DNA from: Chrysomallon squamiferum
Lineage: Eukaryota; Animalia; Mollusca
NCBI GenBank assembly: GCA_012295275.1
Contig: CM022677.1
Coordinates: forward strand, 15,562,001 to 15,626,000
Length of the DNA stretch: 64,000 nt
Direction of reading: 5' to 3'
Of this stretch, positions 2,871 through 53,792 are shown one piece after another. Below the pieces are notes generated by a model. It was not told the DNA's origin and did no database searches. It saw only the letters and a program-made list of their open reading frames with translations. Both the position numbers and the translations under genes were made by a program. Numbering within the stretch: the first letter of the stretch is position 1; every line of letters begins with the position of its first letter.

Positions 2871-2889
2871 CACAATAATGTATTTGAAG

Positions 2890-3340: not shown

Positions 3341-3379
3341 AATATTTAATAAAAGGCAAAATAATATTTTTGTTTTTTT

Positions 3380-5786: not shown

Positions 5787-5788
<2 letters not shown>

Positions 5789-5864
<76 letters not shown>
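5789..5864. repeat. (CT)n microsatellite
   Basis: Pure dinucleotide run. Confidence 0.95.
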
Positions 5865-5872
<8 letters not shown>

Positions 5873-11095: not shown

Positions 11096-12459
11096 GAGCT
11101 ACTGATAAACACAGACTGAAGTTTGGACAGGCACTAGGGGCTTTTACGATTAAACTGGTAATTAAATATTTAAAAAAGTAACATTGTTTTTGTTTACTGA
11201 CTGAAAATATAGAAACTTATCTAGTGATCATATATTGCAATTACTGATAGTGACTTCAGGATCTATCTGATCTATCTATCTATCCGTGCATACAATACAT
11301 ACACATGCACACATGCACTTACACACTGTCTGATAAAACATTTGACAAGCTAAATTAGAAAAAAACAAAAAACAACAACAATCATTTCAAGAAAGAAATA
11401 TTCTACTATTACCTGTATATATATATATAAAGAAATCAACTCTTCGTGATTTTTAGGATCTATATTTATCTGCAAAATTCATAAATAACAAATACCGCAA
11501 ATAATGGCAGGAATCCCGCACCACACAAAACAAAATTATTATCATATGAGAGTAATCTCCCTTCAGCTATAGTTTGTTTCTTTCTTCTGTTTTTGGGATC
11601 CTCGGTGTACGTCAATGCACACCACAGAAAATCGCTGAAAACGAAACAACGTATAAAGCTGTATAAAGAGTAATAAATGTGAATGGATAGGTACGTTCCA
11701 GGAATAGCATATATCAATTTACACAATATAAACAATATGCCGTGTCTATTAATATGTGATAAATAACTAAAATATAAATAATAAAAAATAAATACAGATT
11801 TATAAAGATTAAAATAATATAAACCTGGAATATTAACAAACGTTAAAGGTTAACTGTCAGCGAAAAAATAGTCTGTCACTGAAGAATGTTTTTTCTTCTT
11901 GTTTTTGTTCTTATTTTTTTCATATTTCTCTCCAAATTTCTCTGTCGTGGCCTCCAAGTTTAACATTAATTGCAAAAGCTGATTTCGATAACAGCAGCAA
12001 AAGACTTAATTTTTTTCTCATTTTAAGATAACCAGTGGTACGAAAGTTTGCTTGTATCGTCAGTCCATTCAGATTTTTTATTTCGTTTTCTCTCCGGTTT
12101 CCTACAGTTGCATATAATAGTCACTACGTAGCTAAATCTTTTGTTTACACAATGGAAAAACGTGAAAAACTAACAATAATATTGTTCATCTAGCTGCACG
12201 TAGTAATTACAAGAAGTTTAGTGTCACTGTTAACCCTTCAAAAGCGCGATCATTTCATCTCACGCGGCAGTCTGACTGTGTTCAAACTGCCGTCATTCTT
12301 TAACAAATGATAATACTTAGAAAACTGCGAGTCGTTGTTAACAATACTAATTACTATATAAACTTTTCTGTTGTTCTGAAATTTACACCCGGATTCATCC
12401 CGATTAGATTAGTTTATGTTAATAATAGATTCCCGATAGAGTCCACTATTTACAGTTAA

Positions 12460-25334: not shown

Positions 25335-26323
25335 GTGATTATTTTAATTTATATAGCAGGAAGACATTTAGAATGATCAAGAATTACTTTCTGTGTCTGC
25401 TTTCACCAAAATTATAAATCTAGTCATATCAATAAAGTGCTTCTTAAATAGAAAAGCTTATTTTATATAATTAGGTGAATTGAATATGTGTTAAATTTGG
25501 TGAAACTGTCTGCATTTTCTGTTTAAAGTCTGAAATGCAAAATTATGTTTTTTAGCATTGATCTATGACATTGTTACTTTTACTAATAAAAAAAAAAAAA
25601 AAAAACAACAACAACACATTTTTATTATTGTAATTATTATAATTATTATTAGTTGTAGTACTATTCATAGTTGCCATAAAATGTCTCACAGATGTATTTA
25701 CATGACTCAAGCAATTGTGAAAAACTGAAAAATATGAAATATGACTTTTTGGTAAATATATCTCATCATATCATATACACTATGTGTTACTGCAAACAAA
25801 TGTGTTGACAATGTATAAAAAGTTGTTTTTCTTCATAAAATAAATTGTTCCTCTAATTTAATGAAGAATTAACACTGGCTAATAATTTATTCAGAACTAA
25901 AGAATTAATTTTTGGGCAGGTTATGCTGATTTTGTAAACACTTCACTATTTTAAAAGAACCTGAGCTAATATTTTCTGAACAAAAATATATAAAAGTATA
26001 TATTTTTATAAAACAATTATATATCATAACTCTATTTAATAAAAATGGTTTGATAATTTAAACCATAATTTGTATTTCATAAATTTTGATGAATAAATAT
26101 ATATATATAAAGATACAGAATTATATTGGTACTTTAAGATATTAATTCGTAATAACACATTGAATATAAACTTTCTTTAAACTCCAAGCAGTGATACCAT
26201 AAAATCATGACATTATAAATAATTACATTTAACACTTTGCTTTTAAATTAGTCAGTGATTTTATGTATTTAAGTATTTACTTATTTGTTTGTTTATTTAT
26301 TTATATATTTTTTTTTTTTTTAG

Positions 26324-26506
26324 TGGATGGGGTTTCATCAGCTTGGGCAAGACAAAGTTTACACACCTGTCAGTCAAACTGTTGCAGAACTGTGACATTA
26401 GTAAGAACATGTACAAGCCCAACACCAGCTAATGGTGGAAGTCAGTGTAGTGGAGATAGACAAACTACAACCACTGAAAGCTGTACCAGTGCACTGTGTG
26501 ATAGAG
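26324..26506 (+). CDS. Thrombospondin type-1 repeat (TSP1/TSR) exon, open, phase 1-1
   Basis: Poly-T + TAG acceptor, GTAAGC donor, 183 bp. Translation (V)DGVSSAWARQSLHTCQSNCCRTVTLVRTCTSPTPANGGSQCSGDRQTTTTESCTSALCDR has the RTCTxPxPxxGGxxCxG motif. The first conserved Trp is lost, so it may be a pseudo-exon. Confidence 0.8.
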
Positions 26507-27068
26507 GTAAGCTTCTGACAATTGTGGTGTGCATGTTGGTGCACACAGTTGCATACATACACACATAAGCACATAAATGTATTTCTTTTATTTCTTTTTT
26601 ATTTGTTTAAATATTATTACAAGCATTATTACAGATTTTAAAAATTAACTTTGTAATATGATTTTAAATAATTACATATATTTATCTTGTCAAACACTTT
26701 ATGTTTGTTAAACAGTTTAAACAAATACTTTCAGGTATAAATACTTTTGATCAATAACCTGCCTTATAACGTAATCAGTGTAACATTAATTCATAGATAA
26801 TTTTGTATACCTCATCAATAACCTGCCTTATAATGTGATCTGTATAACATTAATTCATAGATAATTTTGTACACCTGATCAATAACCTGTCTTGAAATTG
26901 CATGGCACCACTCATGTATTGACAGCAGCAGACTATTCTGTACTGGCAGAACAACTGAAAAACTCAAAAAGCTTTGAGCAGGCAAGTTAATCTGTTATTC
27001 AATTTCTACATAAAAGAAAATCATTACTAGATTTCAAGCACAGTTAAAAAGTATTTAATTCACATCTT

Positions 27069-27108
<40 letters not shown>

Positions 27109-27399
27109 TTTCACGATTACAGTTGATGGTTTTTGGTCTGCATGGTCACTTCAGAGACTGCGTAGTTGTAGTGAAACATGGTAGAGGCACTAGAATAAGA
27201 TTTGAGATAAGAGCATGCACAAAGAATGGAGGCAAAGACTGAGGAACAGATGACACAGGAATCTTCAAGAAACATGTGAAACAAATGTCTTATGTCCTGG
27301 TAACAAGCAATAATTAAATCAAATATATTCATACTGTAATTTTCTTTTAAACAAATTATGTACAGACAGGAGGGCATGTTATTTCCTGTGGATCTGCTA

Positions 27400-28130
27400 C
27401 ACAGACTGGTATAAGGTTATTTAACAATCTAGCTGATTATCCTGATATATGTATAACATTATAGTATGTTTTCTTTTTTTGTGTGTGTGTGTTTTCTGTG
27501 GAAAGAGGTATATTAGAAAAATAGTTTTAGTTGCTTGTTTAAAAGGGTGTCACTTTATATTGCAGAAACAGGGTTTCTTTTTCATTATCTGTGTAGTTAG
27601 TTGCATTTTAAAATAAGTAAAACTAGTAAAAAAAACATGCTGTGTATGTTCTTAAATAAAATATTTCTTCTTCACTTTAGATTTGGTCATTAGTGACCAG
27701 CTTGAAGTAAGTGTTTATTAAATCAACAAAGATAATGCTATACTTTACCAGACCAGTTGATTTAATATTTTGTTAAGATGCTGTAAAGCTTCTTTTTACA
27801 ATGTAAATATACTGTCCTAGTTATCAATATTTTATTTAATTCCTATACACATCTTTCCTTTCCTAATACATAATTGTTGTTGCTAATTAACTTTCATCCT
27901 GAAGAACATCTCATCAGACTGATGAACATGCTGGACCCAAAAGGTGTTGATCCTTTTGTTGAAATGAACTTTTACAAGAAGATCATCAAAACATGGATTC
28001 TAGACCTTAACAATGTGAAAGTGTAATAACTTAATGAATCAAAAAACACACAAAAACACACACATTACACTCTTATCTTATATTATAGAATAATTAAACA
28101 ATAAACAGATACTTTGTATTTATTTCAATA
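27400..28130 (+). repeat. Inverted duplication of ~50210-50900 carrying two small exons of an unknown gene
   Basis: TTTAG|ATTTGG..CAGCTTGAA|GTAAGT, and an exon reading PEEHLIRL(M/K)NMLDPK(G/A)VDPFVE(M/E)NF(Y/H)KKIIKTWILD in both copies (27897-28022 +; ~50297-50422 -). Confidence 0.8.
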
Positions 28131-28664
28131 TTTCATTTACAGAATGTACAACTATTTGAATAATGTAAAATGTTACTTGCACTATATTTTATGTTTAGTT
28201 TATAAATGAATACTATATTTTGTTGTAGGATCCTAGACAACAGATTCAAGCTGCCTTATCCAGCACTTCAGTTGAAAATGTTGTAAGACCCATTTTTTTA
28301 ATTTTTTTATCCTGCTCATTTTATTTGAAGAATTAGAAATATATATTTTTTATTATTATTGTATTTATGTTATGTATTTATTTTATTATTATAATTTTAA
28401 TTTAAATTTTGATTTACTAATTAATTAATTTATTTATTTATTTATTTATAGTATTAATATTTTCAATCTCTTAACTGCATCTAGTTATTTTTCTACATTC
28501 TACTAATTAAAATTCTTTTATTTAATTCTTTATTATTATTATTATTGTTATTATTATTTTTTTACAAACTAGTTATAATTATTTTTATTATTATATTTCT
28601 TCTTCATGTTTCTTGTTATACATATATAATATATATTTATTTTCCTCTTTTGTTATTTCCACAG

Positions 28665-28849
28665 AACTGATCTGGGTTTCACATCATTGAAAAAGACACA
28701 GCAGTTGGCACCAACAACACCAGTACCACCATTAGACCTGAATCAAACTGACATCACCACACCAACCACTAAAAACTCAAACTCCTGTGCCAAGAAACAT
28801 CCAGACACACTAGAAAAGAAACCAGAAACACCACCACCCATTGCCAGAG
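28665..28849 (+). other. Candidate Thr/Pro-rich exon
   Basis: TTTCCACAG acceptor; open frame TDLGFTSLKKTQQLAPTTPVPPLDLNQTDITTPTTKNSNSCAKKHPDTLEKKPETPPPIAR; donor weak. Confidence 0.4.
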
Positions 28850-29859
28850 GTTTTTCAGTAAAAATAATGCAACACACTTTATACCTAGTCACATCCACTT
28901 AGTCAGATTTTAAAACCTTTAAAAAATATTCAGGTAAATATGTCTGTAAATATGTCTTAATCTATCTGTCTGTTTCTCTTTCTGTCTGCCTCCCTATTTA
29001 TTTATGTTATTTCTATCTCTCTCTGCTTTTTTGTTTGTATTACTTTCCTTAAAAATGTTCAGATAAATATGTTTGTCTTTCTGAGAATCTGTCTATATAC
29101 CTATGTCTGTACTTACTATACACTTATCTGTTTGTCCTTCTGTATCTCAGTCTGTGTCTATATATCATTTCTTATTTGTTCCTAATTAGCAAGTTTCTTT
29201 CCTTTTTCTTTCTTTTCATTATCATTTTTAACAATTATTGTCAAAGTTGTAATATTATTTGAACAAAGAAAATATTTTATATAATCTTTCTGTAAATTCT
29301 CTTTTGATAATTCTGAATATAAACAGCTTAAGAATCAGTTATTTAAATAATTCTAAATTTATTTATAGTGTTAATTTATAAAAATGCTCTTAAAACAAGT
29401 TTTAGTAGACAGTTGATCATTTTCATTTTATTTATTTGTATTTATTTATAAATCTTTCTATCTTTCTTCAGTGTATCTATCTAAAGTATGTATTTATCTG
29501 TCCTTTATTTATATATTTATTTATTTTCTTATTATTATTAATTTATTTAAAATATAATCATACTGAATTACATAATATTGGATATATAATATTTTTTTTA
29601 TTATTATTATTTTATTAAATATTACAACCTACTGAATAATTTAGTATTCTGTATTTTCATTAATTATTAACAGCTTTTTTTTTTTTTTTTTTTTTTTCTA
29701 GCTAGGTTTAGAATTTATGTTGGACCCCAGGCTTTCTGAGCTGTGTGTTTGGCAATGTGTTCTAACACAACAGTGATCTTCCTTAGCCTCACCAACAACA
29801 AAACAGACACTGAGAGTGCTGTGAGTAATCTTAATTATAACTGTTACAAAATCTTTTAT

Positions 29860-29908
29860 AATAATAATAATAGTAATTGTAATAACAATAATAATAACAA
29901 TAATAATA

Positions 29909-29953
<45 letters not shown>

Positions 29954-30022
29954 GTAATAACAATAATAATAATAACAATAATAATAATAATAGTGGAATA
30001 ATAATAATAATAATAATAATAC
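29860..30022. repeat. (AAT)n microsatellite
   Basis: Direct inspection. Similar runs at 12461-12520, 20130-20182, 24829-24868, 42240-42308 and 47960-48028. Confidence 0.95.
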
Positions 30023-30069
30023 CCAATAACAAGAAATTATTTTTATATTTATATATGAACAGTTAATGT

Positions 30070-30266
30070 TAGCTCGTGGACTAGACATCGTCTGAAATGT
30101 CGCTTCCATTACAATATCAAAAATCCGCTTTTAATTCTTATGCCTGCTAAAGAAGAGAGTCTGCATTTCTCACCGAAAATTGTTCTCTATCATGATTTTA
30201 TCAGTGATGCTGAAATTGAAGACATTAAAACAGTTTCTATGCCACTTTTAAAAACATCTGAAATCA
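30070..30266 (+). pseudogene. P4HA: Second P4H alpha fragment (inverted paralogue of ~14295-14480)
   Basis: RHRLKCRFHYNIKNPLLILMPAKEESLHFSPKIVLYHDFISDAEIEDIKTVSMPLLKTSEI matches the minus-strand copy. Confidence 0.9.
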
Positions 30267-30930
30267 GTTGTTATCAAAAGCATCTTTTGCAATTAATGTT
30301 AAAATTGGAGGCCATAACAGAGAAATAAATAAAAATAATAATAATAATAATAATAACCCACAAAATAACGCAGTCATCAATGTTTATCCTGTGACAACTG
30401 ATAGACCATTAACATTTGTAATAAAAAAATATTCCAGTTTTATGTTACTTTAATCTTTAGAAATCTGCACTCTGGCTAAAACAGTATATCACGTTCGTCT
30501 CAACGAATCATGCGGTTTTGACAGCGTCCACTGTATTTATATTTATTGTTTATATTTTAGTTATTTATCACATTATTAATAGATACGGTATATTGATATT
30601 CCTGGAAGGTACCTACACATTTACATTTATTACTCATTATACAGCTATATACGACGTTTCGTTATCAGCGATTTTCTGTGGTGTGCAGTGACGTTACGAC
30701 ACCGAGAATCCCACAAACAGAAAAAAGAAAGAAACTACAGCTGAAGGGAGATTACTCTCATATAATTTTTTATTTCGGGGGGAGGCGGAATTTCTACTGT
30801 TATTTGCGGTATTTGTTATTTATGGGTTGTTTTTTTCAGTTAAATGTAGATTCTAAGAATCACTAAGAATTGATTTCTTTATATAGAATAGGTAGAATAT
30901 TACTTTCTTGAAATGTTTCCTTGCTTTTTT
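30267..30930 (+). repeat. Inverted copy of ~11385-11995 (downstream flank of the P4H pseudogene)
   Basis: TTTTGCAATTAATGTTAAA.TTGGAGGCCA, CAGCGATTTTCTGTGGTGTGCA and GCTGAAGGGAGATTACTCTCATAT match reverse complements at 11950-11980, 11617-11640 and 11543-11568. Confidence 0.88.
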
Positions 30931-31068
30931 CTTTATTCTTTATATACTTTGGAGTCCATATTTGTAATTTAGTTTGTAAAATATTTCGTCGTCTGCTTTT
31001 TGGAAAGTTTTCAAGGGCAGATAATCGAAAATGAATTATTAAACAATACGTTATAGAATCATGAGTGT

Positions 31069-31104
<36 letters not shown>

Positions 31105-32985
31105 TAATTTTGCTGAATTTTTATTGATCAATCAAAAGAGTAGTCAATTATATTTTGCTTTTCATTTAATTATTATGTAATTATATTTATCCCTTAACTT
31201 ATAACAACACAAAGAAAAAAAAAAAAAAAAAAAAAAAAAAAACAGGAGATTAAAATGACAACAAAATATCATTGATATCACTGATATGAAGGAAGTAACG
31301 AATTTTTATCTGAATAAAATTTGCTGGTATTTTAATTCATAATCTGTGGAAAATCTGAGATTCATTTCAGTTATTTGGCAAACAGAACACTGAATATCTC
31401 GTACAGTTTCAAACCAGTATACACATGTTTTATATCAAAATGATGATTTCTAAGTTTTACTATATTTTTAAGCATGATGCAGAAAGCAACAACTTTTAAT
31501 TAACTGCACTAAATAGCTCAGATGTACCTTACAGTTTAATTATTAATTTCCCAATTTAAGTAACTGTTAATTCATTTATTTCAGAAATTTGGCAGAGTAT
31601 AAACAGAAACACAACTGAGGAAAACCCTTTCAAGGAAGGAAATTAAGATCACAAAAATGTGTTTACCTTTGCAGCAGCATAGAGACAGTTTTACATAAGA
31701 TTTAGGTAAATTGATAAATGTCTTCCTTGTATTTGAATACTCTGCAAGTCTTTGAATCAATCATTGTAAAAGAGAGAAAACAGATTTCAATATTGCCTAA
31801 AATACTACAATGCCTCCACTTAATTTCATAATAAAATGTTTTTCTTTTTTCTTTTTTAGATCTCACTGTGTTGAAGACATAAGTCAACATGACAGATTTG
31901 AATTGTATCCAGTTTTAGTTCACGTTGTATTTTATACATCAGTCAAATAATGTGGAAAAATTCAGATTTTAGGAAAATAAATTTTGTTTCGTCTTCACTA
32001 AAGGAGATGACTGCTGCTTGTTCTCTCAATCATGATGCTGTTCGGAGACTACATTGTTACTTTAAATTCAAACTATAAAACTGTAATTTATCTGTATTTT
32101 TGTAATAATGAATAACAGCTGAAGGTTTCTAGTTTCAAGATTTATATCTGATTATCTACAAAATTTCTGACACTGTTTATTTTTTATGTATATATAATTA
32201 TTGTTCTCGAATAAGATGGCTGCCATCATGTGGCAATTCTGTATAACATTCTTCGAACATAAAATAAAACTGTAAATCCCTAAACACCGGCAATCACCCC
32301 GCGATCATTTCCGCAACAACTATACCCAAAAAAAATACAATGCAAATAAAACAAATAAAGGAATATAATAACCTTTATTACAATATACGTACCAATTATA
32401 AATCGATATGGTTCTTTTGTCAAATAAACGGTGTTGTTATTTCCGCCTCCCTAATTTTTCTTTCTTCTTCTTAATTTATTTATGTTAATACACCAAATAA
32501 AATCACAAAGTGTAGAACTCATTTTAAACTGTGTAGTCTGGGTAAGGTGTCTCATATGTGAAAACTGGGCGTGCGTTAAAACAACAAATAATCCTGGCGT
32601 GTTGAAATGTTAAATAAAAACATATGAAAGTAAATATGTTTTAATATATTTGCGAAATTTCAATTGTACTGTTGTAACATTTCTTTTGATTATTAATATT
32701 AATGTGTGTGCGTGTCCGTTTAAAACTGTATTAAAAAGTGGTTAAAGTGAATCAAGAAAACGTGACACAATGTAATGAAATAATGAGTCAAGACAAACAC
32801 ATTAATGTTGTTAGGATATGAAATGACTAAATACATGAAGATTAACAATGAAAAAATATTTTATTACAGCATATTTCTATTGTGTTAGCGTCTGTAAAGA
32901 TAAAAAGGAGTAAAGGAGGTGACTAGGGAAATGTTTCTCCACCTCAGTGTGGTCAGTAACTAGTATATCTGACAAAAATATTATA

Positions 32986-33333
32986 ATGAAAGATAACGAA
33001 CAACAGAAAGAAGAAGAGGAAGAAGAAGAACGTTACTTATACATATTAATCGTTTTAATGCACAAAGGAAAACGTGTATTGGATAAAAAGGAAGTTACTC
33101 GTCTTTGGGCAATAGCATAATCTAAAGTATTAAATATATTACAACAGTTAAATGTGTCTAGGGATCAAGCTCAAGAAATCTGGTTACAGATTCGACGTAG
33201 ATATCCAGATTTGCAAATACCGAATTCAGAGTTCTATTCGGCAACACATAATCTTTGGCAAGAATATAACAATACTGAAGATTCGAACGAAGAGGACACT
33301 TTTGATTCGCCTTTATTCTCAGAAGACAACTGA
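32986..33333 (+). pseudogene. Acidic 116-codon ORF of the viral island, one in-frame stop
   Basis: MKDNEQQKEEEEEEERYLYILIVLMHKGKRVLDKKEVTRLWAIA*SKVLNILQQLNVSRDQAQEIWLQIRRRYPDLQIPNSEFYSATHNLWQEYNNTEDSNEEDTFDSPLFSEDN*. It ends 18 nt before the capsid-like ATG. Confidence 0.55.
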
Positions 33334-33351
33334 AGACAAACAAAAGAAACA

Positions 33352-35024
33352 ATGAAAAGGCACAAAGAAGAACCAATAAACCCACCACCAAATAAGAAAC
33401 GTAAAGAAAATCCAGTTATCTACAACAGTATCTGAAGATGTTGTAGAAAACACTAGAGCGAAAGGAACGTATCTACAACCAGAAGAAAGTGTGATGGATC
33501 CTGATTCGGTCACAGGAAACGAAGTCACTCCAACTGTGCAAGGAGCACCTATGTTCTCTATCACAGATTTGGAGGAACAACAACAGCGGCTAATCCTAAG
33601 TATATCAAAGTAAAAAGAACATTTAAACGTAAATTTACTAGAGTTTAAATTTTACTAAATTAAGAAAAGCAGAAATGAATATTCTGTATAACGGCGTAGA
33701 TCAAATAGGTTGGCCCAATGCTATTGGAGATCCATCCGTATGTAAATTTACTTTTAATCATGGTGGTCATATAATACCTTATTGGTATAAACAAGCTAGT
33801 ACTAAACCTGAAGATTGGAATTTACAAGATGAATTTGTAGGTTATAGTATTAAAAAGTTTGGATTCAATATTAATAATGATTCATGTTTTAAACAATAAT
33901 AAGGCTGATCCTAATGAAGTTCCTGCTATGGCTCCACCAAATGCTAGAGTGTGGACTTTTACTGATACCAACAAAAAATACAGGTGATTATAGTCATAAT
34001 AATTTATTTAGAGATGAAGAATGTATGGATCAAACCGATGAGCGAAGTATCAAGGTACAACCTGATAGAAATATTTATTTGCCACGTAATATAGGAATGC
34101 AGGTTTAAAATAATGCTTGGACACTGATTGGTGATAATATAAAAATGTACATAACTGACACCTAATTATATTTATGATTTAAAAAAACATGACGGTTACA
34201 TAGAAACTGTAATTAGTGCAGGAGGGTTTGCCTTAGATTATGAATGTAAAGATGCTCCTCTAGTATTATTTCAGTCAAGTTGCTGGTAACGTAAATTGGA
34301 GTAATTATCAATTTAGTAATGAAAGTGCAAAATATTTTGAAGTGTGGCCAACGGATGAAATAACAGTAACTGATACCACTCAACATCCAATGGGAAAAGC
34401 TATGACAGGTTATTTTAATCATCAGAATCAAAATGTTGATTATAAAGCATGTTTTCAGAATTTAGTTAGGTGAACCAGCAATGGCAAATGATAGTATCAA
34501 AATAAATTGATAAAAAAAGGTGTGACAGCAAATGATACAAGTGATCAAAATGTCAAAACAGAAATGGACGGAAGTCATCGTAGAACATATGACTGTAACA
34601 GACCACCAATGTTTTTAATAAGTATTTATCCGGATGTTGAAAGAACAACTAATTATCACGCTAATCTTCAAATAACGCATTATAGTGAAGTAGAGTTCAT
34701 AGTTAGGACTGGTATGTGTCCTAAATACATTCCTATTGGACTTGGTGGTTGCCCTGGTGTTATGAGAGGAATGTTTATACTGTGGTTGCTGGTAAAAAAG
34801 ATAATATAAAACATACAGAACAAGAACATTTTTTATCTGAAAAGTCTAAACAATATTTCGAGAGAATTAAAAAATCTTGGCAACTACGAACAGACGCTCC
34901 AATATGGGATAATTGGAATAGAAGAAAACCTAGTCGGCGGTTGTTTTGGCCTATACATGGTGTTTATGTTGATAGGACTGTACCTGTCGTTGGAAATGAA
35001 AATGATTGGAAATATCCTTTATAA
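33352..35024 (+). pseudogene. Parvovirus-like capsid (VP) gene with multiple frameshifts and stops
   Basis: Stitched frames: MKRHKEEPINPPPNKKRK (NLS-like) ... RFGGTTTAANPKYIKVKRTFKRKFTR ... FNHGGHIIPYWYKQASTKPEDWNLQDEFVGYSIKKFGFNINN ... APPNARVWTFTDTNKKY ... YIYDLKKHDGYIETVISAGGFALDY ... RPPMFLISIYPDVERTTNYHANLQITHYSEVEF. Order and spacing recall the jelly-roll strands of invertebrate and hamaparvovirus capsids. Recognised by eye only. Confidence 0.6.
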
Positions 35025-35264
35025 ATTTCATTAAAATTAATTTTATTAATAACTATATTGTTATTTAATACAAAATTAATTTATTATATATTACATAAAA
35101 TAAGGTTTAAACGAAGAGCTTAGTTTTGGACAATATTTAATTCTTCATTATTATTACTTTTTAAATTGAATAAAATGTATTCTGTTTTTATTTATGTATT
35201 TATTTATTTATTATTATTATTATTGATAAAGCAAAATGTAATTTTAGTGATGAGCTCATCTATA

Positions 35265-35390
35265 TTTAGTCGACGTCAGAAAGTCGAAGCCGATTGGTCA
35301 ATTTGAATATTACGTCATTGGCAACAAGGCAACTAGCAACTAGACAATTAGCAACAAAAGTCAGCTGCAGTTGTGTTTATAAAGCGAACA
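35265..35390 (+). promoter_or_regulatory. Compact promoter in the viral island
   Basis: GACGTCA and TTACGTCA (CRE/ATF-like), two ATTGG, four (G/A)GCAAC repeats, CAGCTG, then TATAAAG at ~35378, about 28 nt before the ATG at 35406. Confidence 0.5.
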
Positions 35391-35405
35391 CAAAAAAAAA
35401 AAAAA

Positions 35406-35525
35406 ATGAAGTGGTTATCTTGGTGCTGCCCGTGTGTCAAGCGTCGAAGACATAAAAGAAAATTCAGAAAAATGATTGAGGCTAAACAAGAAGTGCTAAG
35501 TGGTATTAACTATGAATTCAAATAG
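35406..35525 (+). CDS. 39-aa basic, Cys-containing small ORF (viral island)
   Basis: MKWLSWCCPCVKRRRHKRKFRKMIEAKQEVLSGINYEFK*, directly after the TATA box. Confidence 0.4.
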   Translation: MKWLSWCCPCVKRRRHKRKFRKMIEAKQEVLSGINYEFK

Positions 35526-35735
35526 ATGGTAATTTACAAGTATAAATAGGCAGACAAGTATGTCAGGTGACTAATTACAAATATCGCCCGTTTCTACAAT
35601 GTCAAAAGATAATATATGTGTTAAACGTACATTATATAACTGTAATCACAAATAATAAAATAATAATCTAAACCCAAAAATAACAAACAATAACATATTA
35701 ATATAAAACTTTATCTAATTGTTTACTATTTGCAG

Positions 35736-36040
35736 ATATTATTTTGGAGGACCTGGAGGAAACCGTGATTGAGTTGAATTTGGTATCGGACGCGTACACT
35801 AGCGAGGTGGAGAAACTGTTAACACTCTGGGAATACCGCATCGGGGAATACCATCTGAATATTGCTGAATGCATGGACCATCCAAAGTTTAATCTGTTTA
35901 AATAATTTGATTTGTTCTGGCGAAGCAACGAAGATATGCGAGCTGAGCTATACGCACTTCGAAAGCCGCCAAAACGCTACTACGAGCTTCTCAGAAAGAA
36001 CAAAGAGTTGTGCAATATTCTCACAGATTTATTGTATTAG
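35736..36040 (+). pseudogene. ~100-codon spliced-type ORF of the viral island, one internal stop
   Basis: CTAAT branch + TTTGCAG acceptor (35735). (D)IILEDLEETVIELNLVSDAYTSEVEKLLTLWEYRIGEYHLNIAECMDHPKFNLFK*FDLFWRSNEDMRAELYALRKPPKRYYELLRKNKELCNILTDLLY*, with TAA at 35903-35905. Confidence 0.5.
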
Positions 36041-38103
36041 AACAAAACTTTGATCTGTCTGTCAGTCTCCTTTCCTTAGGTTCTTCTACAATAGAAAACA
36101 GACTTTACTCTCTGTAAAATTACTAATTGTGTTATATTTCTTTTTACTTTTCCTCTGTTGGCTACAATTTTATTTCACGGGAGCATTAATTTCATTATTT
36201 ATTATCTATTTATAAGTCAATATTATTTATTTATTTATTTATTTATTTATTGCTTTATTTCTTGCTTTATTTCTTTAGTTAATTAGATTTTTTTTTTTGT
36301 TGTTGTATCTTAACGTAACATACATTCTGTACCACTTATCAGTTTAAACTGAATAAAAAGCCATTACTAAACATATTCTTTCATTATTTGTATGTATGTA
36401 TAGATATACATACATACACACTATAAACACATGCCTGCATACATACCCACGTGCATCGAAAAAATACCCACATATACACTCAAACACATAAACACTCATA
36501 CAAACATACATTGGCTCATGGTATATTTGTGATGCATATGTTATAGAAAAAAGTATTTATTTATTTATTTATTTATTTTTATAGTTTTAAAAATTAGTTA
36601 TAGTTGTTATTATTCAGTTTCTGTTAAGTCACACTGCACACTGGATATAACTGAAATTCATTCACAGATAAAGCACTGAGGATTTGTAATGCTACATAAT
36701 ATACATTTATCTAAGAAAACAAGTAAACTGTAATCTGTCTCTTAAAATAAAACAGCTGAAAGAAACATTTCTTCATTCTTTGATGTATGGGCCAGTGATA
36801 AGTGTCTATCTATGTTTCAATGTGTGCATGAGTAAGTACTTGTGTAAGTCTGTATGCATGTTTATTTGTGTATTTGAGGTATGTGTTTTTATATGTATTT
36901 ATGCATGTGTATCTGTGTGAGTTTATATTATGTGCATTTGAGTGTGTATATACTTGTGTAAGTCTGTATACATGTGTATTTGAGTGTATGTATTTTTATA
37001 TGTATGTATGCATGTGTATCAGTGTGAGTTTATATTATGTGCATTTGAGTGTGCATATATTTGTGTAAGTCTGTATCTGCATGTATCTGTGTCCTTATTA
37101 TGTATGCATGACTGTGTATGTATTTCTGCAGGTTTGCATGTATATGTGTCTGTGTATGTTTGTATTGTATGTTTAAGTATGTATATATGTTTGTATGTCT
37201 GTATGTACGTGTGGATATATTTGTATTATGTGTGTGCTGTATGAGTGAATTTGTTTATTTAGTCAAATTATCTAGTGATCATGAATATGTTTCTGAATGT
37301 GTGTGTATGTGTGTGTTTTAGAATGTTTGAATGTATGTACTTATATCTAAGTATGTGTTTGTATTACTGTGTGTAAGTTTGGATGAAATCAATGCCAAAT
37401 AAATTATTATCTGAACACCAAAAACAAAAACAAATCTGAAAATAAATAAAGTATCTACCGTGTGTGTTATGTTGTTTTTTTACCTGCTGAAATTAAAGAA
37501 CAACAGAAATTGAATAAAATACCTATCTATATTTAATTATTTTAAATTTGTGTTTTTTTTTTTTTTTTAAATAATTAGTTACTAATTTAAAATCAAACCA
37601 CTCACATTAAAATAGAAAAATAAACATATTCCATAAACATACACAATTAAAAAAACTCATAATTCATCATAAACTAATACACACATATGCGCATACACAT
37701 GCACACAGGCATACCTATAAAAAATTCCATACAAACACAGATACAAAGACACACACTCACACAGAAACACATACGCATACACACACAGACACTCAGACTT
37801 GCACATATATAGACACACTCACAAAAATACAGCCACATTCACACACACAAACATACAAACTTAATACAAGACACATACAACTCACACACATATAAATACA
37901 AACATACACAGAACCATATATACAATTACATACATATATATATAACATCACCATAAAAACTCACTCTTACACATCATGCAAAGATAATTATGTAGAAACA
38001 AAATGACACACAGTGGTATAAAGAGATAAGAGGTATATAAAAATATCACTTGTTTGTAGGTAAAAAGAAGATGGAGGTAGAGCATGTCCCGGTGACAGAA
38101 GCA

Positions 38104-38400
38104 GAAAACACCAGTAACACAGTCAGTGAAAACACCAGTAACACAGTCAGTGAAAACACCAGTAACACAGTCAGAGAAAACACCAGTAACACAGTCAGTG
38201 AAAACAGCAGTAACACAGTCAGAGAAAACACCAGTAACACAGTCAGTGAAAACACCAGTAACACAGTCAGTGAAAACAGCAGTAATACTGTCAGAGAAAA
38301 CACAGTTCAGTCAGAAACTAGCTTAAAGAGAACAGCAGTAACACAGTCAGTGAAAACAGCAGTAACACAGTCAGTGAAAACACAGTTCAGTCAGAAACCA
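38104..38400 (+). repeat. 24-bp minisatellite GAAAACA(C/G)CAGTAACACAGTCAG(T/A) inside a candidate exon (38060-~38519)
   Basis: In-frame ENTSNTVS repeats after TTGTAG|GKKKMEVEHVPVTEA; frame disrupted after ~38320. Confidence 0.85.
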
Positions 38401-39224
38401 GCTTAAAGAGAACAGCAGCACAAAGTGGTGATGAAACAACTACAGCAACAACAGCAACAACAGCAGATGTGAAGAAAACAGAATCAAGCACATTTCTGAA
38501 AATAAGAGAGAAGACAAAAGTAAACCTATGACAAATAAATAATCATAATAATAATAATTATTATTATTACTAACATAGTATTAATATTAATATTATTAAC
38601 AATACTATTAATTACAATAATACAATAATAACAATAAATAACAACAATAACAATAACAACAATAATTAATAAATAAAGAAAAGAAATAAAGTTCTCTATA
38701 ACTTGTTTACTGATTGCTTAATCTTAGATTTACTGTTTTTGTAAAAACAATATTGTTGTCATGATCTTATGTTTTGATTTCATCATGTGGTTTTTAATGC
38801 ACAGAAAAGGTGAAAATAAAAAATCATTAAGTTGACAGCTATTTTAATATAAAATATATTTTGGTACTTTATTAAATAAGAATTTAAACTGTTTTCACTT
38901 AAATAATAATATCCATTTCAAGATGTTGCATTTTGATTTTGTCATCTTTCTCAAAGAAATTTTAAAATAACGTGTCTGATCAAAGGATATCACTACTTTC
39001 ATATAAAATTTATTTGCAAACTTTATCAGTTTGCAATAGGTCTTATAAAACCATCAGTAACCATCCATGTATGATCAATGCATCTCACTAGTTACCTACA
39101 CATCAATGTCTATATAACTACCTTACATATCTATTTTTCTGTATGTCTTTCCATCTATAAACTTAAATATATGTCTAGAGCTCAAAAACATTCTTACACA
39201 TGCATATATGTTACAATATATCAA

Positions 39225-40005
39225 ACTAGTCATTTAGCCTAACACAAAACCATCAGAAATTAGGCCTAATGAGTAAAATGTCCTGGAATTAGGCTGAATG
39301 ACTGTATTTTCCATGGTGTTGTTTGACATTCTGCCTGATAGTTATTTAGACAATAAGTCAAGCAGGTTTAATGCTTTGCAACATTATTAGTGGTTCAATT
39401 CAATTCTTTATTATTCTAAGCTTTACAGCTTATTGATATACAATGTCAATAATAATAAGAAAGAAAAAAAAGAAGAAAAAAAACAACAACAGAATTACAA
39501 ATACTGACAGTATGAAAAAAGAGAAAAATCCTTTGGAGAATATTAATTGCAGATAAATTATGTCTAACAAGTCAAAACTTTTTGACCAGTTACCACCCAA
39601 GACCAAGCTTGACCAGTTGCCACCTAAAACCAAGCTTGACCAGTTACCACTCAAAACCAAGCTTGACCAATTACCACCCAACTCGGAACCTGACCAGCTG
39701 CTGCCCAGTGCCAGGAGCCAGTTTGATGTGTGTCCCCAGAGACTGCTGTTGTCTCATGATGTCTCTTAGAGCAGGGCTGTCAACAGAGTCCACCGCAGGA
39801 GGAGAAGAGTTTGTGAAATGCAACTGTGAAGTGAAAAAGAGTCAAACAAAATGTTTCAAGAACAATTCAAGATGTTACCCAAGTTTGAACTGGTGTAATA
39901 AATAGAACACTACTTGTAATTTTGTCAAAATAAATGTTTTCTTGAAATTGGAAATCATTCTTTTTCATTCAGTGATTTTGCCTAATGACTAAAGGTCTGG
40001 TTACC
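39225..40005 (+). mobile_element. Internally deleted DNA transposon with a KRBA2/SCAND3-type (Ginger2/TDD-like) integrase C-terminus
   Basis: ARSQFDVCPQRLL...SLRAGLSTESTAGGEEFVKCNC...KCFKNNSRCYPSLNWCNK* (~39710-39905) is the Cys-rich tail of these integrases. ATTAGGC/GCCTAATGA subterminal motifs at both ends. Confidence 0.72.
39581..39705 (+). repeat. 27-bp tandem repeat (TTGACCAGTTACCACCCAAGACCAAGC), about 5 units
   Basis: Encodes LDQLPPKTK repeats, in frame with the integrase remnant ARSQFDVCPQ. Confidence 0.85.
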
Positions 40006-40659
40006 ACTTATCTACCACTCTGCATCTCTCTTTGTGTCTATATGTCAACCTGTTGAGTAACTATCTACACACATACCTATCTGCTTGTTCTATCTTATCT
40101 AGTTTGTTTTTATCTTCTCCATGCAAGAATATTCCAATCCATCAGTAACCATCCATCAATCATCTACCCAACCTACCTACATATCTAATTATGCCAACAT
40201 ACCTGCATTATAACTGTATTTCTGTCTGTCCATTTACAAAAACACTCTATAAAACTTTATTTAGTTTCTCTCTCACTGTCCAAATTATTATCACTGTACC
40301 TTCTCTTTCTGTCTGTGTATCTTCCTCTCTGTCAGTTTATCTAGAGTCTGTCTTCTGTCTGTCTGTCTATCTATATTTTATTATCCCTTTTTCTTACACC
40401 TGTCTAACTATGACTACTTGTCAACCTTCTGACACTGTTTTTCATGCAGTGTGTAATCTATGTATCAATCCATCATCTATCTTTCTATCCATCTGTGCAT
40501 CTGTTACTGGACATTTTTAAAATTTATTATTAAAGTTAAAAAACACACACGTTTATCACATAAATTTTCAATATACAATGAGCTTCTTTTTAAAGTAAAT
40601 TTAATTATCTGGTATACATTTACTTTCACCGTAATATATTTATTTAAAAAGGGCACTTA

Positions 40660-41770
40660 CCTGGAAACCATATTTCTTCATGTCTACTGGAGTACTTGTT
40701 TACAATAACAGTTTACACTCTTCTTTTCAGTATCAATCTGTGTGTAGATAATAAAACATCTCCTTAATTTCAGGTCTTCTCACTTCTTCCTTTTAAATAG
40801 AAAAACCAAAAATATATTAATGTTCACATAAACTAACTGAGTTCTTTATAAAGCAAAAACTGAAATTTAATTTGCTGCTACTAAAAACTTTGAAAAAGAA
40901 GCAAGAACAATATAAAAAACAAATAATAATAATAACAATAAAAAAAACAAATTCAGTATATATCACATGAACATATTTTTAAAACAGTGTTTAATCTGGC
41001 AAATGCTGTCCTAGATTCTAGTGAGAAAATGGATTCTCAAACAGGAAACTAATTTAATCCTAGGAATAAAGTGTTTATACAATTACAAAGACTTCCAGCA
41101 TTATTGTTTTTCTGCTTTGCAAATTTGACAAATGTCTGAAGATGCTATGCGAGATACAGCAAAGACTCTGAGTATTTCAAAGTCCACACTGTGTGACACA
41201 GACGAAACATCTCGACGTGACCTCCAAGCCAAAGAGCAAGAATAATCTGGTTTTTAATGCAGCTACCTAAGTGTGGACAGTGTCAGAAATGTGACATACA
41301 ACAGTGAAATGTACACAGTGATATAACCCATTTAGCTATTCTGGTGGAAATCACTACAAAAACTCTGACCACTGCTGATCCCTGGCAAAAACTGCAAAGG
41401 ATCACATGAAATAAATAAATAAATAAATACCCTATAGCTGCATTATGACATCTTCATTATGAAAGTTTTTATGTGTCTTATTAATCCAGTTAAAATAAAT
41501 TTCAGGTCATCTTACGTGTTAAAGTTTCTTATTTCCTGTAAAATATAATTCTCTGACAAGAATAAATAATATTACTCAAATAGAACTTACCTTTTTTTTC
41601 TCTATTGATGTCGCATGCTTTCTTCTCAAACTGTAGGAACTGTAGGAACTGCTGACAAACACATTCTGACTGGAGTCAGTTTCTATTGTTTGTGTTAGTA
41701 TTACTGACGACATTCAACATGAGATAAAATGTCAGACTCTTTCAAGCTGATAATCACACAGGCAGTGTCT
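40660..41770 (-). pseudogene. Cluster of degenerate minus-strand exons, product unknown
   Basis: CTTAC (GTAAG donors) at ~40656 and ~41586 with matching acceptors. Peptides such as EEVRRPEIKEMFYYLHTD*Y*KEECKLLL*TSTPVDMKKYGFQ contain stops. Confidence 0.35.
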
Positions 41771-42081
41771 GTAAGTAAAATTAAGATGAAATTAAAGTAT
41801 TTAGGGAAACAAAGTTTATTTCTCTGCTGATCAGAGGTGAAAACAACACATCTTCTTATGCAGCAGGAAACGAACAACATAGACAGAAAGCTTCATATAC
41901 TCATTATCTCAGTCATAAATATATACAAAGTCATTTAACATTTTATCTGTTTTATAAAGCAATTAGCATAGTTGAAAAACATTGAAACAAAAACTAGATC
42001 ATTATATTCAAATATTTAAAACACAATTAACATCATTGTGTCAAAGTGAATGGTATCTGCATGTGTTGTGTGTGTGTGAGT

Positions 42082-42113
<32 letters not shown>

Positions 42114-42236
42114 TTTTTTGTTGTGTGTAGATGTGTGTGTTCCTGTTTTTTGATCAATATTGTTCTGTACATATTTGTTAATATTACTTTTAATTTTTTT
42201 CTTCTTATTGGTATCATCATTATCATCATCATCATC

Positions 42237-42287
<51 letters not shown>

Positions 42288-42516
42288 TACTATTATTATT
42301 ATTATTATTTCACATTATAGGTGAAATTTTTGTTTCTTTCTTTTTGTCTGTCTTTGATAAACGACAGAACAAAAATAAATGTCACTGTTGGGTGTCATTC
42401 AAAACTAAATAAAGCAGAAAATACGTGAAACTACAGATATGTGTTTGTTGTTTTTGTTTTTACTATGCTAACACTAGAATCAGGTTAGAAAATTCGATGG
42501 CTAATGAAGAGTGAAC

Positions 42517-42520
<4 letters not shown>

Positions 42521-42598
<78 letters not shown>
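42521..42598. repeat. (GA)n microsatellite
   Basis: Pure run. Other dinucleotide runs at 44010, 45400, 61246, 62711 and 63078. Confidence 0.95.
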
Positions 42599-42602
<4 letters not shown>

Positions 42603-44007
42603 GCTTATGATGAGAGTGTACTTTTGTATGGGTTATAAATCGACAAACAGAAAAAGATACATATGGATTTTGAAAGTTGTTATGCATGCAGGAGGCGAGT
42701 GAGACAGAAAGACTCAGAGGTAGAGAGAGTTTGATAAAGATAAAAACTTAGACAGGCTGACAGATTGTTTGTAGGACAGATAAATAGACTGATAGCAAGG
42801 AACAAAGATAAATAGAAAGCCACAGAGGAACGTACTGATAGATATAGAAATACAGAGACAGATTAAGAGACATAACAGATGAAAGCAACTGTATGATGGT
42901 AATGTGAGGTATATAATAAAGTGTGACTATATATATGTGTGTGTGTGTGTGAAAGAGTTCTTTTTTAGAGAGTGAGGTTGATTTGAGTATTTGAGCAAGA
43001 AACTGTGTGAATATGTGTTTATGAGTTAGAGAGAAAGAATGGGTATATCATGTGTGATTTTGTGTGTTTTTCTGTGTGTTTTTGAATGTGCATATGTGTT
43101 GTAGATACATAGTTAGATAGAGGGACAGAAAGATATATGTCAATGTGAAAGATGTACATGTAAACATGTATGGCTCTATAATATTATGTGTTTTTGTGTT
43201 AGAGAGAATGTGGATACACAGGGTATTACTACGTTTATATAATGTTTAGAAAGAATGGGTGTATTATACAAAGAACACTCCTTTTTGAACATGCATGTAT
43301 TATCTATCTTGTTCTCAAGAAGAAACACTCACTCTGTCTTACATATGCACTCCAGCTTTCACATTTGTAGACATAGCTTACCTAACAAATATATGTATAC
43401 ACATAAACACATTTTCATTCACACATCACCTCTCTCTAACCCTCACAAAAATAAATACTCAGTATATTCTTACACATGCCTGTCTCTAAGTAAATCTACC
43501 CCAAAATCTATATCTGAAATAAATAAACATAATCTTGTTCACGCTTATTTATTGACCCATCCTCAAATATAAACATACTCTCATTTACACATTCATTTAT
43601 ACACCAATCCTCTAACATAAATACAAAACAGTATATCCATACAGATATACTCATGAATATGAACCTACAAATGCATATATTTATTTTTTGTATATATCCA
43701 TCTATCTATATCTATCCTAACACACATATACATAAACCCACATTCATTCACTCATATATTTATTTATATTTATTGATCAATCATATGATTCTCTCATCAC
43801 ACTATCTTTCACACATTTATATACCCATTCTCTCTAATACACACATATGCCCATATTTATACAGACAACTATATACATACACATCAGTTGTCTATCTATC
43901 TATATGTAATTATTGTCTACCTGACCTATGGATCTATCTCTCTAGCATTGCCTAGCAATCCATCTATCTAGCTCTCTGTCAATCCATCTCGTGTTCACAA
44001 AATTAGT

Positions 44008-51710: not shown

Positions 51711-53792
51711 TATATGAATGGAAGTGTGTGTGTGTGTATGTGTGTGTGAGACAGAGACAGAGAGAAATGTACATGATATAAAATGTAATGTGTGTTATAA
51801 AATCTTAATGTAATACAAAATGCAATTTTCTACATTAAATTAAATCAAACTTCATTAGGTTTATAATAATAAGAAACACATAAGAAATACACAGAACTGA
51901 CATAATTTAGACCTTGTACATTCATAGGTTTATAATGTATCAATTGAACATTTTATAATACATATTATGAAGCAAATAATGTCAACCATTAGCTATAGAT
52001 ACAGAGGTAAATAGTTTTGGATGTCATATTACTTGCATTTTAAGACTCCTATGGCATATATACACAAACTTAAAAAAATATATATCATTTCAGTAGGTAC
52101 AATAGTGTATTAATATCTCTTGTGATTATGATTACAAATTATTTATGTGCGTGTTAAATATGTTTATAACAAATGATTTTATTAATATTTTACAGTGTCT
52201 ACATATGAAATAACCTGATCATATTTTTCTTAATTTTGTATTCATCATTACTTGTTTTAAACGTTAACATACAGCTATATAGATATTTAAATAATATGAA
52301 AGCAGTTAGGGCCCCACCCATTACAACCTTTAATATGGTTAAAAAATCATTTAAATATGTTTAATAATGTATAGGGCAAGTCAGCAATTTAACATACATC
52401 TTTTAAAAAATAAATCATAAATGAAATTACAAAATCCTGTCAAACAAAATTAGCATATTTTTTTTAACACTTTTATTAGTTTACAGATTTTTTTTAAATT
52501 AATCGAGTGTCTTTTGAAAAAAATATAAATAAATAAATCAATAAATCAATAAATTTATAAATAAATAATTATTGTTCCGAAATAAGATGGCTGCCATCAC
52601 TTGGCTTTGACATGTAAATTATAATTAAATAAAACAAAAAAAATCTAAGTTATAATAAATAATAATACCTGTCTCCTGCACAAAATGAAATGCTTTAAGC
52701 AGCTTTTTGTTGGATCATTATGCGATTACACTAATTCTGTATAAGATTCATCGAACATCAAATAAAACAGTAAATCCGTACAGACCGACAATCATCCCGC
52801 ATTTATCCGCAAATACAACACTAAAAAAATAAATAAATAAAATTCAAAACAAATAAAATAAATAAAGAAACATAACAACCTTATTAAAATATAATTATAA
52901 ATAGATGAGTTTATGTTTTTTGTTTTTGTGTTTTGTTTTGTTTTTAATCATATTATTAGCCAATCACAAAGCTTAGAACTCAATTTACAATAAGTTGCTT
53001 AGTATTGTCCAGGAATTTACCAATGTTTGATATAGGTCTGAAAAAAGATAATAATAATAAAAATAAAACATTTACAGCTATGACAAATACGGAAATCAAT
53101 ACTCTTTTTTTTTGTGTGTGTGTATATCTGCATTGTGTCTGTGTGTGTGTTAATTTTCAAAAGTACCAACTTTATATATATAATATATAGAGACAAAACT
53201 GAAATTCCAAAATGAATTTTCTTCACGTATAGAATCACTATACTATATAATCTTGGAAAAGAAAATTTCTGAAAGTGAGTTGATATATTTACATGTAAGA
53301 AATAATGTTTGTTTCTGATGTATATTTCTGAAGTTATTGTTATTATTATTATTACTACTGTTATTTTTATTATTACTGTTGTTATTATAATATTATTTCT
53401 ATATTTATTATTATTATAGTTATTTATTATTATTATTATTTTATTACTATAGATGTTATTATTGTTATTATCATTATTATTATTATTATTATTACTGTTG
53501 ATATTGGTAATTTTTACACTCTTTTTCTTTATTCTTGACTAATTTGTAATTATTATTATTGTTCCTACAGTTGTAGCAGTAGTAGTGCTAGTAGTAGTAT
53601 TAGTGTGGTTGCTATTACCCATAATAGTGGTCTTAGTAGTAAATAAATAGTATTTAGTAACAGTTTATACAATAACATTTATGGTTAGATGTATTTATTA
53701 CAATAGCAGCTGCTATTATTTTTATTTTTGTTCTAGATGTTGTACTATGTTGTTGTTGTTATAATTTCAGAACTGTGTAACTCCAGCAAAGT

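What the first reader, a model, noticed from the sequence alone, without database searches (positions are those of the whole stretch)
35024..35410. Capsid end runs into a new promoter and gene with no terminal hairpin: circular or concatemeric viral template?
Seen: after the capsid stop come an AT-rich zone with AATAAA-like signals, then CRE-like, CCAAT, (G/A)GCAAC x4 and TATA motifs and a fresh + strand gene. A GAATATTAC (fits NANTATTAC, 35305-35313) sits in a weak stem GTCAAT/ATTGGC. Knowledge: in monosense parvoviruses VP is the last gene before a palindromic terminus, whereas CRESS-DNA viruses are circular with a NANTATTAC stem-loop origin. Inference: the order (Cys-rich tail, acidic ORF, VP, promoter, leading ORF) looks like a genome opened inside its replication gene. 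That would mean a circular virus with a parvovirus-like capsid, or a head-to-tail concatemer. The nonanucleotide is weak evidence in AT-rich DNA.
Basis: partly seen in the sequence, partly recalled or inferred. Interest (0 to 1): 0.75.

Follow-up and report, generated by a model that had tools for sequence, protein, structure and literature searches.

The report
Parvovirus-like fossil with extra downstream gene
This is a broken, repeated virus-like insert in an animal-type genome, in which a likely parvovirus-type coat gene is followed by a second promoter-like stretch and a small spliced gene; that layout likely reflects a linear virus with two gene units in a row, not a circular virus, and it points to a likely undescribed virus lineage.

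Summary
The motifs are real: capsid stop 35024, AT-rich spacer, CRE/CCAAT/GCAAC x4/TATA cluster, and a + strand gene that proves to have two exons (35406-35502, 35736-36040) and is spliced in an RNA contig of a related copy. The capsid matches intact 690-aa proteins from unnamed ENA contigs (28-75% identity by piece) and aligns weakly, in two colinear blocks, with parvovirus capsids. The circular (CRESS) reading fails: the nonanucleotide core occurs 55 times in the window, has a 4-bp stem (50 of 68 CRESS controls have 8 bp or more), and no Rep/NS1 remnant was found. The 'acidic ORF' is the capsid's own N-terminus and the 'Cys-rich tail' has no support. Capsid, spacer and small gene are all repeated in the host. 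Best reading (0.45): an internal spacer between two same-strand cassettes of a linear parvovirus-type genome or capsid-only segment, as in the AdSDV VP segment. A head-to-tail concatemer (0.25) or a hairpin-less circle (0.15) is not excluded: relatives lie 2 to 4 or more per contig, and what follows the small gene in other copies could not be read.

The parts
32190..32521 (.). Host interspersed repeat that flanks the element on the left (not part of it)
   Evidence: Copies at 3448-3959 and 52554-52906 of the window; contigs of other copies leave the window sequence at 32190 and 32521 (table 7)
32522..32956 (.).
   Evidence: High summed contig depth; contigs join or leave at 32592, 32758 and 32956; no Pfam, NS1 or Rep hit; TG repeat near 32700 varies in length among copies (table 4)
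33058..35024 (+). Decayed capsid gene, likely parvovirus-type jelly roll; at least 6 frame changes and several in-frame stops; includes the 'acidic ORF' as its N-terminus
   Evidence: tblastn of intact P0014 gives 7 pieces covering residues 1-689 at 28-75% identity; hhalign of the family to 39 parvovirus VPs E=0.011 plus a second colinear block E=0.89
35025..35264 (+). AT-rich spacer with AATAAA at 35169 (likely capsid polyA signal) and an A/T palindrome at 35034-35082
   Evidence: repeated in the host (depth 893 and 689 in runs X3, X6 at 35050-35175); one contig spans 34847-35131
35265..35405 (+). Promoter-like cluster: two CRE-like sites, two reverse CCAAT, four GCAAC repeats, E-box, TATAAA at 35378
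   Evidence: Sequence; function inferred from position 28 nt upstream of the ATG
35305..35313 (+). GAATATTAC: chance match to the CRESS nonanucleotide, overlapping the second CRE-like site; not an origin
   Evidence: one deep contig of another copy lacks letters across 35313-35333 (table 4)
35406..35502 (+). Exon 1 of the downstream gene (32 codons plus one base; Cys and basic N-terminus)
   Evidence: RNA contig join (tables 5c and 7)
35503..35735 (+). GT-AG intron, 233 nt, phase 1, keeps the frame
   Evidence: an RNA contig of run X8 joins 35500 to 35734 and two contigs of RNA run X5 agree by their loose ends
35736..36040 (+). Exon 2 (about 100 codons; one in-frame stop at 35903-35905 in this copy); protein of no known family
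   Evidence: no hit in Pfam, NCBIfam, PDB or 1.84 billion cluster representatives
36041..36183 (+). Repeated tail: no AATAAA; a pyrimidine tract with AG at 36079 (possible further splice acceptor); likely right edge of the insert at about 36150-36190
   Evidence: Sequence; depth 6074 falling to 142 in X3 after 36183 (part of the next bin was skipped as a repeat); CpG o/e falls to 0.21 in the flank

Best explanation
The stretch is a spacer between a decayed capsid gene and a small spliced gene inside one repeated insert, and it is likely the internal boundary between two same-strand transcription units of a linear parvovirus-type virus genome or capsid-only genome segment. In that virus the capsid mRNA would end at the AT-rich zone (AATAAA 35169), and a second promoter (CRE, CCAAT, GCAAC repeats, TATA) would start a spliced mRNA for a roughly 133-residue accessory protein. 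Terminal hairpins are not expected at an internal boundary; the true ends would have been lost on or after integration. The unit then multiplied and decayed in the host germ line. Shown: motifs, intron and splicing in a related copy, homology to intact 690-aa proteins, repetition in the host, absence of a CRESS stem-loop. Inferred: parvovirus-type fold (weak statistics), promoter and polyA function, linear topology, accessory role.
For: Capsid relatives P0013-P0033. Two colinear blocks align with parvovirus VPs; best score 27.9 beats 59 of 60 column shuffles and 60 of 60 block shuffles. Splice join in RNA contig, GT-AG, frame kept. Every bin from 32530 to 36183 has depth far above the lowest single contigs (72-90 in X3), and depth drops after 36183; the small gene has no other copy in the window; CpG o/e 0.86-1.31 over promoter and gene against 0.21 in the right flank and 0.48 for the window. 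No stem-loop origin. No Rep/NS1 remnant in six frames. No 'goes back' joint from the right end to the left part among the joints shown. Published linear precedent of similar size (about 3.3 kb against about 3.6 kb here): AdSDV VP segment (PMC10267136).
Against: No AATAAA follows the small gene within the repeated tail, and a pyrimidine tract with AG at 36079 could lead into a further exon, as expected if the gene were the leader of a replication cassette. Diverged copies run on for 93-135 nt of other sequence after 36106, unread. Relatives are clustered: at least 4 copies on a 297455-nt contig, 3 on 60905, 2 on 8418, which fits tandem arrays. No single contig shown bridges 35131-35244, so the capsid-to-promoter link outside this locus rests on depth, which the tool says is no copy number. 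In 39 of 39 parvoviruses fetched, VP ends within 484 nt of the record end, so the layout is not the norm. The capsid assignment is weak: hmmsearch not significant (4.6 bits, shuffles up to 5.3), no Pfam or PDB hit, AlphaFold models unusable (pLDDT 31 and 28), and the parvovirus set was fetched with a recalled motif chosen for its likeness. No relative of the small gene was found beside the ENA capsids. 64 and 16 joints were hidden.
Confidence: 0.45

Rival explanations
1. Head-to-tail concatemer or episome of a hairpin-type parvovirus: the promoter and small gene are the left end of the next genome copy, a leader cassette upstream of NS1, and the insert is cut off before NS1.
For: Clustered capsid copies on single contigs, two within 8418 nt; no polyA signal and a possible acceptor after the small gene; head-to-tail forms are published for bocaviruses, PPV4, PPV5 and AAV (PMC3125170 abstract; PMC3676418 passages); hamaviruses carry small 5' ORFs (PMC13426907); an A/T palindrome at 35034-35082 could be a terminal remnant.
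Against: No GC-rich hairpin remnant in the 240-nt spacer (15% GC), whereas the bocavirus episome keeps 513 nt of structured termini; no NS1 remnant on either side; clustered relatives differ by 0-13% in protein, which suits repeated events more than one concatemer; no backward joint shown.
Confidence: 0.25
2. A truly circular, hairpin-less ssDNA virus (or capsid-carrying mobile element) with a parvovirus-type capsid; the spacer is its one large intergenic region and the four GCAAC repeats are initiator-binding iterons.
For: Hairpin-less spacer with short direct repeats at 7-15 nt spacing; all genes on one strand; tens of copy-equivalents in the host by rough depth; family unlike any library entry.
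Against: CRESS origin test failed (4-bp stem against 8 bp or more in 50 of 68 controls); the nonamer's 3' side differs in a deep contig of other copies; no Rep remnant; no relative among 2.9 million viral contigs; the 'Cys-rich tail' that suggested a permuted genome is unsupported.
Confidence: 0.15
3. 35265-36183 is an unrelated host or transposon gene that happens to lie behind the capsid fragment.
For: No homologue of the small gene anywhere searched; exon 2 and its tail have higher depth than most of the capsid; the left side of the insert is a mosaic of repeats with junctions at 32521, 32592 and 32956.
Against: The spacer and promoter are themselves repeated; the best-kept capsid bins (3800-4600 in X3) reach nearly the depth of exon 2 (4800-6000); shared high CpG content; no junction or loose end in 35024-35410 among the rows shown; compact 233-nt intron and dense promoter.
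Confidence: 0.15

Closest known systems
Acheta domesticus segmented densovirus (AdSDV), VP segment (PMC10267136; passages and section 8 read)
   Same: Linear segment of about 3.3 kb with no NS gene: capsid ORF with its own promoter and polyA signal, then a second promoter and a small ORF spliced onward; same strand.
   Different: AdSDV capsid is 378 aa and brevihamaparvovirus-like, and its second unit carries a PLA2; here the capsid is 690 aa, has no hit to any solved structure, and the small gene has no known relative. No NS segment or termini were found here.
Parvovirinae capsids (39 dependo- and bocaparvovirus-type VPs from IMG/VR)
   Same: Two colinear sequence blocks at the positions of the jelly-roll core; similar total length (681-765 aa stop to stop).
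   Different: Similarity is at the edge of significance; VP is the last long ORF in all 39; host here looks like an invertebrate (inferred from composition and recalled exon likenesses).
Head-to-tail episomes of bocaviruses, PPV4 and PPV5 (PMC3125170 abstract; PMC3676418 passages)
   Same: Capsid end joined to a promoter and a leading gene.
   Different: Those junctions keep structured termini and lead into NS1; neither is seen here.
CRESS-DNA viruses (78 IMG/VR loci), including Oomyviridae / parvo-like hybrid virus (PMC13426907 passage)
   Same: A NANTATTAC match in an intergenic region.
   Different: No stem-loop, no Rep, and the capsid profile matches none of 188 other ORFs of those loci (best E 1.1).
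Megaparvovirus lineage and its beetle EVEs (PMC13426907, section 3.3 read)
   Same: Parvovirus-type genomes with extra cassettes of unknown, sometimes spliced genes; found as endogenous elements.
   Different: Their extra cassettes lie upstream of NS1 and VP, not downstream of VP.

Membership tests
Parvoviridae | Single jelly-roll capsid of parvovirus type | tested here: inconclusive
   hhalign E=0.011 with a second colinear block; hmmsearch, Pfam and PDB negative; models unusable
Parvoviridae | NS1 with HUH nuclease and SF3 helicase | tested here: inconclusive
   None in the 64-kb window (best 1.8 bits), but the profile is built from Parvovirinae only and is insensitive to distant SF3 domains (control); the insert may be truncated or one segment of two
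Parvoviridae | Linear genome with terminal hairpins | tested here: inconclusive
   No GC-rich hairpin at 32521-32660, 32880-33000, 35024-35410 or 36040-36189; ends are commonly lost in endogenous copies (general knowledge; PMC11357303 passage on IHHNV EVEs)
Cressdnaviricota (circular Rep-encoding ssDNA viruses) | Nonanucleotide at the apex of a stable stem-loop | tested here: not met
   4-bp stem, fold -3.1 kcal/mol elsewhere; 50 of 68 control loci have 8 bp or more
Cressdnaviricota (circular Rep-encoding ssDNA viruses) | HUH-SF3 Rep gene | tested here: not met
   Profile of 34 Reps finds nothing in six frames of the window (best -1.0 bits); absence in the window only
Cressdnaviricota (circular Rep-encoding ssDNA viruses) | Circular genome | not testable with these tools
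   No related locus with flanks could be fetched; contigs laid are short
Bidnaviridae | [quoted passage not shown] | not tested
   No profile search for PolB was run; no stop-free frame above 140 codons lies in 26000-44000

The most novel reading that the evidence does not exclude
An animal virus or self-amplifying element with a parvovirus-type capsid but a circular, hairpin-less, single-strand-coded genome: capsid, polyA, one control region with GCAAC iterons as origin, a spliced leader gene, then a replication gene, repeated in tandem in host chromosomes. It would bridge hairpin parvoviruses and circular DNA viruses.
Probability: 0.15. Interest if true: 0.85.

Novelty: new variant of a known kind. 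Interest (0 to 1): 0.5.

Why it matters
Endogenous parvovirus-like elements are common, but this capsid family has no named relative among 5.8 billion protein clusters, and its layout (capsid first, then a second promoter and a spliced gene that is still transcribed from some copy) has, in what I read, one precedent, the segmented cricket parvovirus. It marks a likely new lineage of small DNA viruses of invertebrates and gives a cheap test: the 8418-nt contig with two capsid copies should show at once whether the unit is linear, tandem or circular.

Tried and rejected
CRESS origin: rejected. A minus-strand HUH-like motif near 32720 and the plus-strand Cys-rich reading: both rest on a TG/CA repeat; no Pfam or profile support. 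Locus L001, the only hit for the small gene in metagenome contigs: a phage contig where the match lies opposite another gene; rejected as chance. Searches for related loci in viral, metagenome and genome contigs: none. No whole genome is held. Two AlphaFold runs gave unusable models, so no fold search was run. The Atlas gave no result for the capsid relatives and none is available for the small gene. The odd N-terminus of P0024 matches nothing in the window. Joints such as 35410 to 34501 rest on short A-rich matches and were not used. No target-site duplication above 6 nt. Pfam did not confirm the host exons I thought I recognised. Earlier findings of the scan: nothing on this element. Literature searches with no paper: circular + parvovirus-like capsid + CRESS; endogenous parvoviral + concatemer + tandem + invertebrate. 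No supplements were read.

Full report
Setting. The window is AT-rich (about 29% GC), full of microsatellites and interspersed repeats, as in an animal genome; that it is an invertebrate is my inference. No whole genome is held. Nine public runs from three studies, all of one coded organism, hold the stretch or part of it.

The capsid stop (35022-35024), the AT-rich zone, AATAAA (35169), two CRE-like sites, two reverse CCAAT, four GCAAC and TATAAA (35378) are all where stated. The GCAAC cluster is the densest in the window and appears in 0 of 20000 shuffles of the region, with the caveat that the motif was picked after the fact. The names of these promoter motifs are recalled, and their function is inferred.

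The nonanucleotide. The core occurs 55 times in the window. The region folds no better than shuffles (z -0.33, +0.27, -0.55). As a control I fetched 78 CRESS-type loci (the scan had at least 124 matches): 68 of 78 hold NANTATTAC and 50 of those 68 have a perfect stem of 8 bp or more; the window has 4 bp. The match overlaps the second CRE-like site, and one deep contig of other copies lacks letters across 35313-35333. It is not an origin. An A/T palindrome at 35034-35082 is the only notable fold (z -2.84), but one host locus among 207 AT-rich windows folds better, so it is weak.

The capsid. A window piece found one cluster among 5.8 billion: 13 unnamed ENA proteins, two of them intact at 690 aa; seven more fragments followed. 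P0014 aligns to 33058-35018 in 7 pieces with 6 frame changes, at 28-75% identity. The 'acidic ORF' is therefore the capsid's own start. Pfam, NCBIfam and PDB gave no hit and two AlphaFold runs failed. Against 39 parvovirus VPs (39 of 41 loci), hmmsearch was not significant (4.6 bits; shuffles up to 5.3), while hhalign gave a 75-column block at E=0.011 that beat 59 of 60 column shuffles and 60 of 60 block shuffles and a second block in the same order at E=0.89. The set was fetched with a recalled motif chosen for its likeness, which biases the first block. I take the capsid as likely, not proven, parvovirus-type.

The downstream gene. It has two exons: ATG 35406, donor GT 35503, acceptor AG 35735, phase 1, frame kept, stop 36038-36040, 134 codons with the stop. 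An RNA contig of run X8 joins 35500 to 35734 and loose ends of two contigs in RNA run X5 agree; no such join is listed for DNA runs X3 and X6. Both RNA runs are of one study and are contigs, so this shows splicing of some copy, not of this one, which has one in-frame stop at 35903-35905. Exon 2 has no relative among 1.84 billion representatives, in Pfam, NCBIfam, PDB or in three contig collections (the one hit is a chance phage match). Prokaryotic gene calling may miss such an exon, so the blank is weak.

One element or two? In run X3 all bins from 32530 to 36183 have summed depth of 412-11649 where the thinnest single contigs have 72-90, and the next bin has 142 (that bin and the 412 bin include skipped repeats, and the tool warns that depth is no copy number). 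Near-identical contigs at similar depth cover capsid (23-27 in X1) and intron (23), one contig spans capsid end to spacer, another exon 1 to exon 2; none shown spans 35131-35244. CpG content is high over promoter and gene and low in the right flank. Copies at 80-88% identity also exist for capsid and for exon 2. I read this as one repeated unit ending near 36150-36190. On the left, 32190-32521 is a host repeat with two more copies in the window, and 32522-32956 is a more abundant stretch with junctions at 32592 and 32956; at 32956 most contigs leave the window sequence, so this copy may lack a segment there, of unknown size. The 'Cys-rich tail' has no profile hit and includes a TG repeat of variable length.

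Replication gene. Profiles of 38 parvovirus NS1 and 34 CRESS Reps found nothing in six frames of the window. Cross-controls show limited reach (NS1 profile on Reps, median -2.2 bits; Rep profile on NS1, median 11.9), so a distant, decayed helicase could be missed.

Topology. No joint from the right end back to the left part appears among those shown (15 of 79, 15 of 31); a longer unit would not show one anyway. Relatives are clustered, judged by equal contig lengths: at least 4 overlapping capsid pieces on 297455 nt, 3 on 60905, 2 on 8418, at 87-100% identity to P0014. This fits tandem arrays or repeated insertion at one place; the spread of identities speaks against one concatemer. After the small gene there is no AATAAA in the repeated tail and a pyrimidine tract with AG at 36079, which keeps the 'leader of a further gene' reading alive; diverged copies run on for 93-135 unread letters after 36106.

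Mechanism and comparison. In 39 of 39 parvoviruses fetched VP ends within 484 nt of the record end, so 1160 nt of repeated DNA with a second gene is unusual. But the linear VP segment of AdSDV has this layout: capsid ORF with its own polyA site, second promoter, small ORF, splicing, no NS gene (PMC10267136, passages and section 8). I give this 0.45; a head-to-tail concatemer, as published for bocaviruses, PPV4 and PPV5 (PMC3125170 abstract; PMC3676418 passages), 0.25; a hairpin-less circle 0.15; an unrelated neighbour 0.15. Membership in Parvoviridae is untested for NS1 and termini, so I call it parvovirus-like; membership in Cressdnaviricota failed on origin and Rep. PMC13426907 (abstract, section 3.3, passages) shows other lineages with extra cassettes and warns that many 'parvovirus-like' sequences are bidnaviruses; I did not run a PolB profile. 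PMC11357303 and PMC6631224 were seen as passages only. Four searches found no paper on a circular or tandem endogenous element with a parvovirus-like capsid; the library lacks most subscription journals.

Verdict. A real, repeated, decayed viral insert of a likely undescribed lineage with an unusual second cassette; the CRESS idea is refuted, topology is open. Interest 0.5; new variant of a known kind.

Noticed in passing
window 32956: Most contigs covering 32760-32956 continue with other letters, and a capsid-bearing contig has 82 other letters before 32955: this copy may lack a segment upstream of the capsid, possibly where an NS gene would lie.
   Followed up: partly
window 35034-35082: 49-nt imperfect palindrome of almost pure A/T ten bases after the capsid stop; kept in near-identical copies.
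   Followed up: partly
window 36063-36117: Pyrimidine tract with AG at 36079 in the most deeply covered part of the tail; in phase with the donor at 35503 but closed after 12 codons in this copy.
   Followed up: no
runs X3, X5, X6 on window 33129-35018: Several diverged capsid copies (80-88% identity) exist in the same organism, one in a 2080-nt RNA contig and one in a 2311-nt DNA contig.
   Followed up: no
window 3389-4576, 32183-32521, 52142-53044: A host interspersed repeat family with a short palindrome near 32214-32226; type not determined.
   Followed up: partly
window 30083-30279 and 14281-14475: Inverted 90-93% duplicate of an exon-like stretch that recalls prolyl 4-hydroxylase alpha (recalled; Pfam gave no hit).
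   Followed up: partly
window 26314-26499 and 27100-27240: Exon-like pieces that recall thrombospondin type-1 repeats (recalled; Pfam gave no hit).
   Followed up: partly
window 39790-39905: Cys-rich reading that recalls the C-terminus of Ginger2/SCAND3-type transposases (recalled; no Pfam hit), preceded by a 27-nt tandem repeat.
   Followed up: partly
window 9560-10813 and 38100-38420: Tandem arrays with 67-nt and 24-nt units.
   Followed up: no
protein P0024 (8418-nt contig): One capsid relative has a different first 60 or so residues, matching nothing in the window: a rearranged junction or an assembly error.
   Followed up: partly
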